Shown: piece after piece, positions 14,279 through 61,569 of the stretch
How positions within the stretch are numbered: the stretch's first letter is position 1
Layout: each line of letters begins with the position of its first letter
DNA from: Eledone cirrhosa
Taxonomy: Eukaryota
Assembly: GCA_964016885.1 (NCBI GenBank)
Contig: OZ024743.1
Coordinates: 186,186,001-186,250,000, forward strand
Reading direction: 5' to 3'
DNA length: 64,000 nt
Position numbers and translations under genes: made by a program
The notes under the pieces: generated by a model
What the model was told of the DNA's origin: nothing
The model's database searches: none
The model's input: only the letters and a program-made list of their open reading frames with translations

Positions 14279-14317
<39 letters not shown>

Positions 14318-14790
14318 TAACCATTATCGAGGACAATCTTTTCACATTGCGGATAATCAACTTGACTCTGCAAGGTGAAACAATTGTCCTCAATAATGGT
14401 TAATTAATAGTTGTGGAACTAACTTCTACCAAACTCATCCCATGGACTGAGTGCTCTACTACTACGGATATAACCTCCCAGTGTTCTACCGCTATATATA
14501 TATATTTATATATATATATATATTGTTATTTAGGTATAGAAGATGCTGGAAGAGCATGTTCCAAACTGTGGCATGAAAGAAACTGTTAATGTATGAACTA
14601 GTAGGTAACTGCCACCTTCCAAATATACCAGCTTCAAAAACACTCTATTATACCAGCCTGATATTTAGAGGTCTTCAAGTGTTCAACTACCCACCTAAAG
14701 AAATCAGAAATATAAAAGGCACCTCTATTGAAACATTAGAAATAAACAAACATTCTATGAACTTCTATCTAGGATAACAGACCAAGGATA
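13460..14790 (+). mobile_element. Decayed CR1/Jockey-like LINE split by a TA tract and hairpin insert
   Basis: GWIPRTFITRE..MLTIWKTLV, YCSQIWS, FRG.QVFN..PKEIRN. Confidence 0.6.
14315..14493. mobile_element. Fold-back insert in (TA)n: hairpin 14315-14405 plus tail
   Basis: aattaaccattatcgaggacaat ... attgtcctcaataatggttaatt; GAAACAATTGTC hammerhead 3' half; TA tracts on both sides. Confidence 0.7.
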
Positions 14791-14829
14791 TATATATATA
14801 TATATATATATAGATATATATATAGATGA

Positions 14830-14878
14830 GATTCTACAGGACTAGAACTGTTTCATTCTTTAGAAATCATCAGGAATC
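14830..14878 (-). ncRNA. Type I hammerhead ribozyme, left arm of hairpin insert
   Basis: GAUUC-CUGAUGA-UUUCUAAAGAAU-GAAACAG-uucuaguc-CUGUA^GAAUC; stems I and III pair fully, GUA triplet. Confidence 0.75.
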
Positions 14879-14883
14879 CCTGA

Positions 14884-14931
14884 GATTCCTGATGATTTCT
14901 AAAGAATGAAACAGTTCTAGTTCTGTAGAAT
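14884..14931 (+). ncRNA. Type I hammerhead ribozyme, right arm of hairpin insert
   Basis: GAUUC-CUGAUGA...GAAACAG-uucuaguu-CUGUA^GAAU. Confidence 0.7.
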
Positions 14932-15247
14932 AACACTTCAGGGAGACCTGCAAAGAAAGTCAGTTGATTCAAACTCAATTATGCACCTAATTCCAGCAAT
15001 AAAACTTCAAATCTGAAAAAGAAAGGCAGTGCTCCAGCAAGGCCACAGCCCAACGATCGCAGGACCGCACAATTATATAGATATGTATTTATATATATAT
15101 ATGTAAAATACATACATATATACATATATATGTATATATATATATAAATAAATACATATATACACACGCATATGTATATACATACACATATATATACACA
15201 CACATATACATATATATACATATATATATATTCACAGATACACACAC

Positions 15248-18748: not shown

Positions 18749-48984
<30,236 letters not shown>

Positions 48985-56044: not shown

Positions 56045-56495
56045 GGCGACCTACGTAGGAAATCGTATTATCGTGAGCTCCACAAATGTTTGTTGTTTTC
56101 AGTTGTTTAAAATTGCCATTTATGGAAAAGTTTTATTGTTAACTGTATATAAGTGCACATACATTGTTTTCTGAAAAGAAAACTAAAAAAGATTGGGGCC
56201 TTGAGCCAAAAATTTAAACTTTTATAATTATCAAACAAAAATTTCTTTGAAAAAATCATGGACGACTCACAGTCACACCTTCCTCACAAACTAACACCTC
56301 ACACCGACACCACCATTGTAAATATTACTACGTTTGCCAACACTAAAAATATAAGCAGTAGCAGTAATTTAAATTTGTATCATGCAGACATTAATTTTCC
56401 GCCATTACCAATGACTGCAGGTGTTGAAGCCGCCACCCCACCACCACAGCGACAACAGAAACAAAAGAAAAAAAAAATTATCTCGTGACATCGAA

Positions 56496-58151
56496 ATGGA
56501 TTCACTCAGAATGGACTCTTCCACACCGAACACCACTGACGCCACCACCACCACAACTGAAACTAAAAATAACAATAACAAAAATAACGATAACAACAAC
56601 AGCAACAACAACAATGAGAATAAGAAAACCACTCTGTCTTTTGCCAGAGTAGCAAAAAAGTGCGAAGCAATCCAGGTAACTCAGGAGGAATTAGATGAAG
56701 CAAAGAGAATGGTAAAGAAAGATGGGTACAGGATAAGCCCCCCCCCCCCACCTAATAAAATGGAGCATCGGCGCCTATGCACCGTGTCTTATCGGACAAT
56801 TAACATAAAATCGCGCCGAGTGGAACGAGCATCCGAGTCCCAAATCCTAAAAGCTTTGGGACATGTGTGGAAAAAAAAAACCCACATCAGACGTGGGCAG
56901 AAATATGGAACCGTGGACGTGTTCTTTGGAACACCACAGGAGGCCAGAAAACACTCCATGACCCCATTAAGAAGTGACGACTTCACACTTGTCCCAAGCT
57001 ATTGTGGCCAGAGACTCGTGAAGATCAGGGTGACCCACGTTCCACCGGCCATCGAAATTCCCTGGCTAATGGCTGCGGTCCTCGCCGGCATCGAGGCCAA
57101 CACCAAGATAATCGAAATAGCGAAAGAAAAGCAGGAGAACTGGTCCGGATCTGGGATAGAGCTCCTGATCCAAGCGGACCAAAAAAGCATTGAGGAGATC
57201 CCAGAGGTAATAGACCTCACTGACGGCAGCCACCTCACCGTAATCGGCGAGGGCAGAAGGCCTAGGTGTGTCGTTTGTGGTGAAGGAACCCACCTAAGGG
57301 CTTTCTGCCCTCAGGCTAAAAGGTTGAGGCCACCTCTCTTACCAACCCAAGTGAGTCAACCATCAACACCACCAGCAGCAGAAATGGCAGCAACAACAGA
57401 AGCAACTGTAACAGCAGCAACCCCAGCAACAGTAGCAAAACCAACACCACCACCACCCAACGCGCCAGAACTAGCACCAGCGCCTACACCATCCACCACG
57501 CCCCAACCAAAACCAACTCCTGTGGAGGATTTTCCACTCCCCGACCTATCGCAACTGGAGGCAGATTGTGACGACGAGGAGTGGGAAACGGTATCAAGAA
57601 AAAAAGAAAAAGAAGCCAAAAAAGAAAAAAATCCTCTTCCTTCCCCCTCCAAAAACAAAATACAGAAGGAAACAAATAAACTATCAAACAAAAAAGTTAG
57701 GACAGCTATGGCACCATCCACACCAGCATCACAAACCTCATCACCACAAACACCAACACCATCACCATCATTAACCCCAACACCACAAAAGTCACCAAAA
57801 AGCGAAACAGAAGCAAATCCACAACAAACGCAAACAAAACAAAACAACAAAAACGATACACACTACACAGCATTAAATTTGAACAACCAATTATTACACT
57901 ACATCCAACACAACACCAGCATCACAGAAAAAGACTACACAACAATCCCAAAGTTCAAACCACCTCCACACATACAAATCACTCGCATCACACAGAAAAC
58001 GTACACGACACTAAAACAAAAATTCCCCAAAGACATCGGAGACTTCCGACAAGCACTCTCCAGGAGGATTTATAAGGACATCCTTCCGGAGGAGGCCACA
58101 AGCAGTGAAAAGGATGGAGAAACCATCCTTCCTCTACGTGAAGTAAGGTAA
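56496..58151 (+). CDS. Tx1/L1 ORF1 (gag-like, zinc knuckle, Pro/Thr-rich)
   Basis: CVVCGEGTHLRAFC CCHC knuckle; SFARVA motif; first in-frame ATG at 56496. Confidence 0.8.
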   Translation: MDSLRMDSSTPNTTDATTTTTETKNNNNKNNDNNNSNNNNENKKTTLSFARVAKKCEAIQVTQEELDEAKRMVKKDGYRISPPPPPNKMEHRRLCTVSYRTINIKSRRVERASESQILKALGHVWKKKTHIRRGQKYGTVDVFFGTPQEARKHSMTPLRSDDFTLVPSYCGQRLVKIRVTHVPPAIEIPWLMAAVLAGIEANTKIIEIAKEKQENWSGSGIELLIQADQKSIEEIPEVIDLTDGSHLTVIGEGRRPRCVVCGEGTHLRAFCPQAKRLRPPLLPTQVSQPSTPPAAEMAATTEATVTAATPATVAKPTPPPPNAPELAPAPTPSTTPQPKPTPVEDFPLPDLSQLEADCDDEEWETVSRKKEKEAKKEKNPLPSPSKNKIQKETNKLSNKKVRTAMAPSTPASQTSSPQTPTPSPSLTPTPQKSPKSETEANPQQTQTKQNNKNDTHYTALNLNNQLLHYIQHNTSITEKDYTTIPKFKPPPHIQITRITQKTYTTLKQKFPKDIGDFRQALSRRIYKDILPEEATSSEKDGETILPLREVR

Positions 58152-58185
58152 GTGGTCTTTCCCATCTTTTCCACTCCATTTCAAC

Positions 58186-61100
58186 ATGACCTCACTCAGA
58201 ATAGGCAGCATAAATGCGCGTGGCTTGGCGTCGTCATGGAAGCAGGGCCACCTGCTCAACAACCTCAGGTCACTAAACATAGATGTAGTGGCCATCAGCG
58301 AGACCAGAATCTCCGAAGCACGGCCCTTCGCACTGATCTTCGGCAGCTACGATGTGTACGCATCTCCCAGCCGTCCTGGATCGGGGGGAGGAGTTGCTGT
58401 GCTTTTTCAGAGAGGTTTGGATCTCGCCATACGGGCCATCTTCCTGGACCCAGAAAGTAAGTTGGTGGTGCTAGACGTGACCAACGGAGACGGGCAAGCT
58501 TTCAGGCTAGTGGCCGTCTATGCTCCGACAGGAGCAGGGCGGCCTGATTTCTTCCGGCGTCTGGAGACCTTTCTTGGAACGTCCCGCTCTTTAGTGTTAG
58601 TGGGCGACTGGAACGGGATCTTAGATGCACGCTGGGACTGTGTGGGATTAGCAGATAGGGGAGGAGGGTGCAAGAGCCTCACCAACCTGCTCAGGCGTTT
58701 TGAATTGTCTGACAGGTACCGATTGGATTTCCCGAATGTGCCAATGTGGACTTGGACAAACCGCATAGGGTCATCCAGATCATATCTAGATAGAGTATTT
58801 TGTAGGGAAATAGAGAGGTCTAGCATAGGCTGTCCACAATTCAAGATAGTCAGCTACACGGACCACAAATTTGTGATCTGTGTGCTTGACTTAGATAGGC
58901 TTCATAGACGAGGACCCGGCTACTGGAAGTTAAACGCGTCCTTACCAGCGCGCAAGGCCTACAGAGACCGGATTAGCGAACTAGTTAAGCGGGCGTTGAC
59001 GGGGGCCATCGTCAACAACAAGTGGTGGCTTGCTCTGAAAAGACCGATTAGAATAGAGTCCATTAGGTTCAGTAAGGCTTTAGCAATAGAGAAAAATAGA
59101 GCAGAGGGAGAACTAGTTAGAAAATTAGACGAGGCGCTTAGCAAAGGCATCGCGACCGACGTACTTGCAGCAAAATTGGCCATTGGCCAATTCTTCAATG
59201 CAAAGCACGAAGGCTGCGTTGTCAGAGCTAGGGTGCGTGCTCTGACACGAGGGGACAAAAACCGTTCAATGGGCCCGAGTGGCGGAGGTGCGTTGTGGCA
59301 ACAAAGCCACGATCCGGTCTTTGGTGGACCACGACGGGCGCATGCTACTCGATCCCGGGCTGTTCGGGGCAGCGGCGGGCCGGATCGAGGGATGGACTTT
59401 AGTGTCTACCTCGACGGACAGCCGCGGCTCTCGGCCACTGAGGCGGAGTGTTGCGAAAAGCCGATAACAGCCGCTGAAGTATGGGAGGCAATGACTGGCT
59501 ACACAAGGGGTAAATCGCCTGGTTTGGATGGTCTGCCCTATGAACTTTACGTACAGATGCCAGACTTGTTCGGAGGCCTCTTGGCGGACGTCTACTGCAA
59601 CTGGCAACAGAACGGGAGAATTCCCAGTTCTGTGAGCCGAGGAGCGGTGGCGCTGCTGAGAAAGGATCCGAAGAAGGGGGATAACATAGATAATTTCAGG
59701 CCCATAACTCTGCTAAACACAGAGTTCAAGATTTTGGCCAAGCTGCGAGCAAAGAGGTTGGCGCTTGTCGTTGGTGGTCTGGTGGGAGAGGCGCAGACAT
59801 GCGCCATTCCCGACAGATCCATCCATGACAACCTCCACCTCATGCGAAACATCGTAGAGAGGGTAGCTAGGGAACCTGGCACGGGTGGGTCCTTGATCAA
59901 TTTAGATCAGTTGAAAGCTTTCGATAGGGTCGACCATCATTATCTGGCGGCAGTCCTGAGGGCGGCTGGCTTTGGGCCCGTCTTCAGAGGCTAGATCGCT
60001 GCCATGCACAGTGACATCTGCTCTGTGGTGAGAGTGAACGGTCATCTTTCGGAACCGTTCAACATCATGCGCTTGGTTCGCCAAGAATGTCCTCTCTCGC
60101 CCCTCTTGTACGTATTGACTCTCAAGCCATTACTGCACAAACTGGAGACGTTGAGGGGGGTCCCGCGCGAACTAGGATGTGGAAGATCCGTGTCAGCATA
60201 TGCGGACAATGTGACCGTAGTGGTGTCGAACGCCAAACACATCGAGGCGATCGGCACTACACTAAGAGAATACGAAGTGGTGACAAGAGCAATGATCAAC
60301 CAGGAAAAGTCAGTGGGCCTGCAGCTCGGCACCTGGAGAGGCAGTTCCATGCCATCCAACAGCGTCGTCGGGCGCTGGATGGACGGACCGGTTAAATTGC
60401 TAGGGGCCTGGTTTGGTCCGGACCTCCAGACGGACAAAAACTGGGACGAGGTGACGAGCAGGGTGGCTTCTCTCACCCAGAAATGGGCCGAGAGGAAGCT
60501 ATCCCTGAAAGGTCGAGCGGAGGTGGCTAACGCGTACATCGCGTCCGTCATCTACTACCGCCTGACCGTCGTACCTTGTCCTAAGCCCCGCCTGACTGCG
60601 CTGGAGCGTTTGCTCTTTCGCTTTTTGTGGAAGGGACGCGCTCCGATGGTCAGGCAGTCCATCTGCTGTCAACACCCGCTACGTGGAGGGCTGGGCATGC
60701 CGTGGCTGATGATGCGCAGACACGCGCTCAGGCTACGACATCTCCACCTCTTCCTCGACGGTGGTCAGGTGTGGTCGCCGTTTGCTAGATGCGTCTTTCC
60801 CCAGCTCGTCTCTTTGACAAAGCTGCAGTCCTGGGTCAAGCGAAGACCGAGAGGGAGCGCTTGGAGACTGGAATGTCTTCAGGCGCTCACAGCCCTCGAC
60901 CAATCGGGCAATGTGATCGGTAGAAACTCCACCTTGGCGTTCTATAGAAGATTAGTGGAGGGGAGGAGCGACGATGTACTTGGAGAAACTCTAGCCGTCG
61001 ACGAAAATCAACTAGCCAATCTCTTCGGAAGAACTTTCGGACCTGGGCCTATGGACAACTTCCAGAAATCCCTGGCCTGGCAGTGCTACCAAGGAGCTTT

Positions 61101-61569
61101 GCCAGTTCGGGATAAACTCTACAGGCATGGAGGTGCCGTCAGCCGGGCATGTCCGAGATGCGCGCAGGGCGACGAAACCGTCCTGCACGCACTTGTCCAG
61201 TGTCCGAGCATTGCTGACTTGTGGGTTTATGTCGAACACCTGCTGTCGCGTGTAGGACGGATCCAGCTATCAGCTGAGTCCATCGTGAGGATTGCCCCGC
61301 CCTCTTCCTTTAGCCGGGAAGGGCAGGCAGTTTTTATCTGTCTGGTGGCCATGGCGAAAGAGATAGTATGGTGGACACGTTTAAAAGGGCTGAAGATGAG
61401 CACTTACCTCTTCGGTGATGCCCTGATTAACCTTTTCAAATTTCATTTGAAAAGGAAAATCAGGGTAGAGAGAGAAGTGCTCTCTTCCCAGCATTTTGTT
61501 GAAAGATGGGTGAGAGAGGTAAGAATGGCCCGAGTGAATGGGCCTACTGAGTATGTGTCTGTAAATTAA
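58186..61569 (+). pseudogene. Tx1/L1 ORF2 (AP endonuclease + reverse transcriptase), disrupted
   Basis: SINARGL, SET, GDWN, YLDR, TDH (APE); KSPGLDG, FRPITLLN, KAFDRV, PLSPLL, YADN (RT); in-frame TAG at 59992-59994 at a normally Trp position; apparent compensating frameshifts ~59250-59370. Confidence 0.9.

What the first reader, a model, noticed from the sequence alone, without database searches (positions are those of the whole stretch)
14830..14931. 101-bp palindrome that is almost nothing but two divergent hammerhead ribozymes
Each arm is one complete type I hammerhead with a 4-5 bp stem I, a 4-bp stem III closed by an 8-nt loop and a GUA triplet. The arms are separated by only 5 nt. Unlike typical minimal PLE hammerheads it has a stable stem III, so it could cleave as a monomer. 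Stem II closes with an atypical U.U. In RNA the long hairpin would compete with the ribozyme fold, making a possible kinetic switch (inference).
Basis: partly seen in the sequence, partly recalled or inferred. Interest (0 to 1): 0.75.

Follow-up and report, generated by a model that had tools for sequence, protein, structure and literature searches.

The report
Penelope run-off palindrome with two hammerheads
This mirror-image stretch is one of more than a thousand short leftovers of a Penelope-type jumping gene rather than a stand-alone RNA switch; it likely forms when both cut DNA strands copy the very start of the gene's RNA, where a predicted self-cutting hammerhead sits, and the two copies are joined back to back.

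Summary
The palindrome (14831-14931; 48-bp arms, 47 paired) and both type I hammerhead motifs are real. It is not a stand-alone switch. It is a short head-to-head insertion of a Hydra-clade Penelope-like element (PLE). I found the full-length parent (pLTR-hammerhead-tail-RT/GIY-YIG ORF-pLTR) in the same genome, with 8,084 exact core copies and 1,107 loci whose hammerheads meet head to head within 0-12 nt. The U.U and the ACAG/CUGU stem III are normal for published Hydra-clade hammerheads; only the 8-nt loop 3 is unusual, and it keeps a dimer-forming palindrome. Spacers vary from locus to locus, so the palindromes are likely rebuilt at each insertion. Arms start sharply at a TATA/Inr-predicted transcription start at the hammerhead's first base, often with an extra G, and almost always one arm has the ~70-nt tail and the other does not. 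Best model (inferred): both target strands prime reverse transcription at two internal sites, run off the capped RNA end and are joined. Junctions show no pile-up at the cleavage site. The architecture is published, and this scan found the same pattern on other genomes. The window copy is a damaged member.

The parts
14788..14823 (.). (TA)n tract, the preferred target of the family
   Evidence: sequence; the other copies examined mostly end in (TA)n
14822..14878 (-). Left arm: tail-less copy of the PLE RNA start, positions +2 to about +60, ending at the short 3' end class
14828..14880 (-). Type I hammerhead, minus strand; stem I 7 bp; predicted cut between 14835 and 14834
14879..14883 (.). Inversion junction CCTGA, fitting the family formula N-C-W-G-N (an extra G before each arm plus one central A/T)
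   Evidence: 43 of 50 listed 5-nt spacers fit, hand count
14883..14931 (+). Right arm: copy of the PLE RNA start from the predicted +1 A (14883) to +49; tail and (TA)n missing, likely lost by a later deletion
14885..14931 (+). Type I hammerhead, plus strand; stem I cut back to 4 bp; predicted cut between 14927 and 14928
14518..14721 (+). Old LINE-like remnant, left of the insertion (host sequence)
   Evidence: 74% identity to L074
14936..15057 (+). Continuation of the same remnant right of the insertion, collinear with the left part in L074

Best explanation
The palindrome is a short head-to-head insertion left by a Hydra-clade Penelope-like retrotransposon, likely built anew at each site when both nicked target strands prime reverse transcription on the start of the element's uncleaved RNA and the two copies are joined where they run off its predicted capped 5' end. 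Shown: the parent element and its clade motifs, the copy numbers, the varied spacers, the sharp start of arms at the hammerhead's first base, two classes of 3' end, and one tailed plus one tail-less arm per insertion. Inferred: transcription starts at the A of CC-A-GATT, 30-33 nt after a TATA box, so the hammerhead is the first 45 nt of the RNA; the two 3' end classes are two internal RT start sites; the extra G is the copied cap; the join is made by end-joining with short templated additions. The hammerheads are passengers, and in any transcript across the palindrome the hairpin would mask them.
For: Parent: UTR-HHR-tail-ORF in 4 of 8 fetched stretches (L129, L130, L133, L134; L127, L131, L132 hold HHR-tail-ORF with less UTR; L128 tail-ORF), and the UTR-HHR recurs after the ORF in L128, L129 and L134. 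The ORF has RWR, DKT, YRDD, CxCX5C and CxxC/CxH; GIY-YIG scores E=8e-4. 8,084 exact 29-mers; 1,107 loci at gap 0-12; 207 at gap 5. The 50 listed spacers have 10 different lengths, with 1, 3 and 5 nt most common (31 of 50, hand count). 23 of 68 arms start within 0-2 nt upstream of GATTCC against 6 of 68 in the next 55 nt. TATA sits at -30 in 56, -32 in 18 and -33 in 27 of 103 arms; YCAGATT Inr in 98 of 104. 3' ends fall at 26-43 (40 of 68) or 101-115 (28 of 68), none between. One tailed arm in 43 of 43 parsed palindromes (42 distinct loci), 7 of 7 longer divergent pairs and 34 of 35 in the position-ordered set. Either arm may reach further 5' (10 vs 5). A loop-2 variant is on both arms in 8 of 8 loci that carry it. 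In vitro, an anole PLE nicks and extends both strands, uses two internal start sites that define the tail, and uses unprocessed RNA (PMC11167929).
Against: No RNA data place the start site or show a cap. The GA before GATTC also matches the 3' strand of stem I, so fold-back copying could supply it in many arms (not in the GG, GT or GC variants). Shared variants on both arms are also what fold-back predicts. The tail-less arm reaches further 5' more often than the tailed arm (41 vs 18 over all sets, overlapping loci), which two independent cDNAs do not explain by themselves. Only 5 of 9 solo copies that start at the site have a G there. The window copy itself breaks the one-tail rule. The in vitro data come from another clade (Poseidon).
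Confidence: 0.66

Rival explanations
1. Same element, different route: one cDNA (or an antisense template) folds back and primes itself, and the endonuclease trims one arm at an AT-rich site, giving the tail-less arm.
For: Proposed in print for head-to-head PLE palindromes (PMC3846280) and for the tail (PMC8557442). Both arms share source variants (8 of 8). Spacers such as TCA, TCATC and AGG can be read as copies of nearby element sequence. Five of 30 cleavage-site loci join exactly through the stem I complement.
Against: The base next to each arm varies independently in N-C-W-G-N spacers. Either arm can be the longer one. The commonest short end (19 of 40) lies at AAAACT followed by TTT in the element, not at a TA step. 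Solo copies use the same two 3' ends.
Confidence: 0.24
2. The palindrome is itself the mobile unit: a MITE- or retrozyme-like mini-element amplified from one or a few master palindromes.
For: All 40 scored hits to the window query were 95-100% identical palindromes with the same 5-nt gap; TCAGA/TCTGA and TCAGG/CCTGA recur many times; the same hammerhead also forms a 78-bp tandem array (L032).
Against: One search is selected by the query. Unselected spacers have 10 lengths and many sequences, only 207 of 1,107 have gap 5, gaps run continuously from 1 nt to 7 kb (one search list), and the same spacer occurs in both orientations relative to the tail.
Confidence: 0.07
3. A selected RNA device: a kinetic switch in which the hairpin gates monomeric hammerhead cleavage.
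For: Both cores are intact in the window, and the 8-nt loop 3 permits a monomer stem III.
Against: It is one damaged copy among >1,100, inside an old repeat; the + arm has lost part of stem I; on each strand the antisense arm is made first, so the hairpin can form as the ribozyme emerges (inference); genomic copies carry substitutions at the cleavage triplet (12 of 30 and 15 of 30 inspected loci).
Confidence: 0.02

Closest known systems
Hydra-clade EN+ Penelope-like elements (Craig et al. 2021, PMC8557442; section 11, passages, Files S1-S2 read)
   Same: RT plus C-terminal GIY-YIG, DKT, CxCX5C linker, CxxC and CxH, (TA)n target, canonical hammerhead with U.U under stem II and ACAG/CUGU-A stem III, inverted 5'-truncated copy (noted there for Penelope-13_HM)
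   Different: RWR instead of RWK; loop 3 is 8 nt here against 1-3 nt in the 25 tabulated families; tail about 70 nt against 30-40; longer 3' UTR with (TA)/(TG) repeats
Head-to-head inverted pLTR insertions of Adineta vaga Penelope elements (PMC3846280; passages read)
   Same: [quoted passage not shown]
   Different: Explained there by self-priming on an antisense template; here the junction piles up at the predicted start site with an extra G on each arm
Poseidon element of the green anole in vitro (Frangieh et al. 2024, PMC11167929; main text read)
   Same: Two internal RT start sites define the tail; both strands nicked and extended; uncleaved RNA is the template
   Different: Other clade; hammerhead overlaps the start codon; the text read gives no account of the inverted copy or of 5' run-off
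Animal non-LTR retrozymes (bioRxiv 10.64898/2026.07.22.740005; first fifth and passages read)
   Same: Non-coding pLTR-derived repeats with a type I hammerhead; the 78-bp array L032 resembles them
   Different: Retrozymes are direct tandem repeats; this is an inverted pair on opposite strands
LINE-1 twin priming and retroviral strong-stop DNA (recalled; the look-up of the twin-priming paper failed)
   Same: Two primed cDNAs joined into an inversion; short cDNA ending at the RNA 5' end
   Different: L1 primes at the poly(A) tail plus an internal site and gives variable junctions; here both starts are internal and fixed

Membership tests
Hydra-clade PLE (parent element) | Single ORF, RT then C-terminal GIY-YIG endonuclease | tested here: met
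   L128, L132, L133; Pfam GIY-YIG E=8e-4, 20.1 bits, below the 22.6 cut-off; RVT_1 not detected in the 3 pieces scanned, YRDD read by eye. All copies seen carry stops or frameshifts.
Hydra-clade PLE (parent element) | DKT motif and N-terminal RWK motif | tested here: met
   SSDKTKN and IRWRAF (RWR, conservative change)
Hydra-clade PLE (parent element) | CxCX5C linker; CxxC and CxH around the conserved E and N; no CCHH | tested here: met
   CNCLNKEAC, CDLC, CMH in L128 and L133, read by eye
Hydra-clade PLE (parent element) | Insertion into (TA)n; pLTRs with hammerhead; optional tail; inverted 5'-truncated copy | tested here: met
Hydra-clade PLE (parent element) | Phylogenetic placement with published Hydra RTs | not tested
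   no tree built
Type I hammerhead ribozyme | Core CUGANGA, GAAA, NUH; stems II and III closed, stem I open | tested here: met
   stem II is 3 bp plus U.U, no G10.1-C11.1
Type I hammerhead ribozyme | Match to an Rfam hammerhead model | tested here: not met
   0 hits at gathering score; no hammerhead family among 25 hits at E<=10
Type I hammerhead ribozyme | Stem covariation | tested here: inconclusive
   Copies are too alike; within 68 palindromes the only recurrent two-arm variant is in loop 2. Across families, File S2 shows different stems around the same core.
Type I hammerhead ribozyme | Self-cleavage after GUA | not testable with these tools
   Genomic proxy negative: junctions at the cut site (about 84) are no clear peak against neighbours (about 68 and 35)
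Non-LTR retrozyme | At least two direct tandem units, each with a hammerhead | tested here: not met
   The window copy is an inverted pair; only L032 is tandem (15 intact cores in 3 kb)
MITE (DNA transposon derivative) | Fixed terminal inverted repeats and a fixed internal sequence | tested here: not met
   Outer ends are unequal and the centre varies

The most novel reading that the evidence does not exclude
Penelope-like elements make a strong-stop-like product: both target strands prime at two fixed internal sites, and both reverse transcriptases copy through an uncut hammerhead to the cap. The >1,100 palindromes then map the element's transcription start to the base, record cap copying on both arms, and explain the inverted copy and the one-sided tail in one step. 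The hammerhead, as the first 45 nt of the mRNA, would be a self-decapping device that is held off during insertion.
Probability: 0.4. Interest if true: 0.6.

Novelty: new member of a known kind. Interest (0 to 1): 0.32.

Why it matters
As a single locus it is ordinary: a dead repeat. As a family it bears on an open question, how PLEs make their inverted copies and one-sided tails, which both PMC8557442 and PMC11167929 call unresolved. A thousand independent junctions give exact predictions (start site, cap G, two priming sites, uncut template) that an existing in vitro system can test. It also warns that palindromic double hammerheads in animal genomes are usually insertion scars rather than switches.

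Tried and rejected
Rfam found no hammerhead; the mir-3199 hit (63 bits, cut-off 100) only reflects the hairpin. A single master palindrome looked likely after and was rejected as query bias. The Neptune-like ORF next to L070 was followed as a possible parent; its 3' end lacks this hammerhead, so it was dropped. A 3' splice site at CAG/ATTCC (as in D. virilis Penelope, PMC4209133) was considered: arms keep the G and usually the A upstream, and no common exon sequence precedes them, so it was set aside but not excluded. A pile-up of junctions at the cleavage site was sought and not found (30 loci inspected of 167, 113 and 208 matches). RNA: no RNA holder listed; nothing was laid from the two guessed-RNA contig sets, 2 of the 4 listed; this says nothing about expression. 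In the same call a run of unknown kind shows loose ends at the hammerhead start (119 and 252 contigs), but it may be the assembly's own material and at 80% likeness may include other families, so it is not counted. Literature searches for PLE twin priming, start-site run-off, cap G or palindromic non-autonomous hammerhead elements listed no paper that describes them, judged from listings; subscription journals, Repbase and bioRxiv supplements were not visible. No tree, structure prediction or protein-database search was run.

Full report
Observation. The arms are 14831-14878 and 14884-14931, 47 of 48 bases complementary, around CCTGA. Each strand carries a complete type I hammerhead motif: CUGAUGA, U[UUC-UAAA-GAA]U, GAAA, ACAG/CUGU with an 8-nt loop, and GUA. 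The 23-mer core occurs twice in the window and no shuffle of 100 reached two. Stem I is 4 bp on the + arm and 7 bp on the - arm. Rfam reports no hammerhead.

It is a repeat. The window lies in a 3.0-Gb, microsatellite-rich animal genome. A search with 14826-15075 gave 1,422 candidates; all 40 scored were 95-100% identical over the palindrome only. In the 29 other loci fetched, one arm ends in a (TA)n or similar microsatellite within about 25 nt of the cut site, and the other runs on through a tail of about 70 nt before (TA)n. The hammerhead also occurs in solo copies preceded by a long UTR and in a 78-bp tandem array. Exact counts: 8,084 copies of a 29-mer (5,249 forward, 2,835 reverse; the excess is probably arrays, inference), 1,107 loci with two hammerhead starts head to head at 0-12 nt, 207 of them at 5 nt.

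The parent. Of 210 tail copies not followed by A, 30 were read, and several run into an ORF. Eight 7-kb stretches were fetched. Four hold UTR-hammerhead-tail-ORF, and three show the UTR and hammerhead again after the ORF. The protein has IRWRAF, DKT, YRDD, CNCLNKEAC, VY...YIG, CDLC and CMH, which match the Hydra-clade diagnosis in PMC8557442 section 11. Pfam gives only a weak GIY-YIG hit, and no tree was built. Every copy seen is broken by stops or frameshifts.

The hammerhead is normal for its clade. In File S2 of PMC8557442, 14 of 25 Hydra families have U.U under stem II and 4 have ACAG/CUGU (hand counts). Their loop 3 is 1-3 nt; here it is 8 nt. That allows a monomer stem III, but only at -1.4 to -2.0 kcal/mol, while the CUAG in the loop gives a dimer at -12.8 to -14.2. 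PMC4209133 reports that metazoan PLE hammerheads are dimer-type and weak in vitro, and already notes pairs on opposite strands 100-700 bp apart. In the whole palindrome the hairpin (-77 to -79 kcal/mol) leaves the hammerhead pairs at probability 0.00.

The palindromes are rebuilt each time. Among the first 50 loci the gaps are 1 (10), 2 (3), 3 (13), 4 (1), 5 (8), 6 (5), 7 (5), 8 (3), 11 (1) and 12 (1), by hand count. All 1-nt gaps are A/T, all 3-nt gaps read NC-W or W-GN, and 43 of the 50 listed 5-nt gaps read N-C-W-G-N. Longer spacers copy nearby element sequence. The same spacer occurs in both orientations relative to the tail. Divergent pairs among the first 100 core hits have gaps from 1 nt to 7 kb.

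Where arms start. I took 68 of the first 83 rows, skipping 15 already held (10 of them arms of short-gap palindromes, so the peak is understated). 23 of 68 start within 0-2 nt upstream of GATTCC, 6 within the next 55 nt, 27 further out to 391 nt, and 12 reach about 400 nt, the limit examined. This position has a TATA box at -30 to -33 (101 of 103 arms) and YCAGATT, an Inr-type sequence by the recalled consensus YYANWYY, in 98 of 104. The native base before the +1 A is C; at junctions it is often G, including 5 of 9 solo copies. An added G at full-length 5' ends is attributed to cap copying for LINE-1 (PMC4038843, passages). A caveat is that GA also complements the 3' strand of stem I.

Where arms end. 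3' ends fall in two classes with nothing between (40 and 28 of 68). One arm is tailed and the other not in 43 of 43 parsed palindromes (42 distinct loci; L149 not parsed), 7 of 7 longer pairs, and 34 of 35, 12 of 15 and 52 of 56 pairs in three partly overlapping sets. Either arm can reach further 5', though the tail-less arm does so more often (41 vs 18). A loop-2 variant is on both arms in 8 of 8 carriers among 68 palindromes, so both arms come from one source.

Cleaved RNA leaves no clear mark. Estimated junction starts are about 84 at the cut site, 68 one base before and 35 one base after (15, 18 and 5 of 30 inspected, scaled to 167, 113 and 208 matches), against roughly 1,900 over the three start-site positions (34% of about 5,700 dispersed cores; rough, since the patterns differ). 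This agrees with PMC11167929, where unprocessed RNA is the main template.

Mechanism. Shown in vitro for another clade: both strands are nicked and extended, and two internal start sites define the tail. Inferred here: one target strand primes at the short site and the other at the tail site; when this happens in the upstream pLTR, both cDNAs reach the RNA start after 60-140 nt, copy the cap, and are joined with a few added bases. The result is two hammerheads back to back and little else. The published alternative is self-priming (PMC3846280); it stays open at about one in four. Twin priming in LINE-1 is recalled, not read (one search failed).

The window copy. Its left arm is a normal short arm ending in (TA)n. 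The right arm stops at +49 and abuts an old LINE-like remnant that is collinear on both sides with L074. The tail and the second (TA)n were probably deleted later (inference); 1 of 304 other arms ends the same way.

Earlier scan notes. I wrote the twin-priming and run-off idea down, before one search returned eight notes from other genomes with much the same reading. They are AI notes, not independent evidence. One of them reports copies stopping at the cut site, which I did not find here. They led me to PMC3846280.

Verdict. The feature is real, the family is a new member of the Hydra clade, and the architecture is known. What this locus adds is a sharp start-site signal and a spacer grammar that make an open mechanism testable. 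Interest 0.32.

Noticed in passing
window about 27240-28645: A second, unrelated PLE insertion with the same design: divergent minimal hammerheads (27506 on -, 28438 on +), a GIY-YIG-like remnant in the middle, and a tail of about 60 nt on the left arm only.
   Followed up: partly
window about 14314-14410: A short inverted-repeat insertion beside (TA)n, overlapping a repeat (14372-14523) found in several other loci; it may belong to the rearranged-hammerhead families that other notes on this genome describe.
   Followed up: no
L032 (G000:C28:30848789-30851840): A 78-bp tandem array of the same hammerhead over the whole 3 kb, 15 units with an intact core; retrozyme-like, and suited to dimer cleavage through loop 3.
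   Followed up: partly
L081:1400-1800: A short degenerate tandem of hammerhead, tail and ORF start, about 220 nt per unit.
   Followed up: no
L076 (minus strand, from L070): A near-complete Neptune-like PLE ORF (RT, CxxxxCxxC linker, GIY-YIG) abutting a copy of this family head to head.
   Followed up: partly
300 sequences scanned, 887 kb: At least ten other type I hammerhead families turned up in the flanks, several with 3-4 bp stem III.
   Followed up: no
window 56415-61569 and 30104-31594: A near-intact LINE (ORF1, then endonuclease and RT in two pieces) and an RT fragment of another LINE, read by eye.
   Followed up: no
window 47366 (+) and 54303 (-): Two further hammerhead-like motifs of other repeat families.
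   Followed up: no
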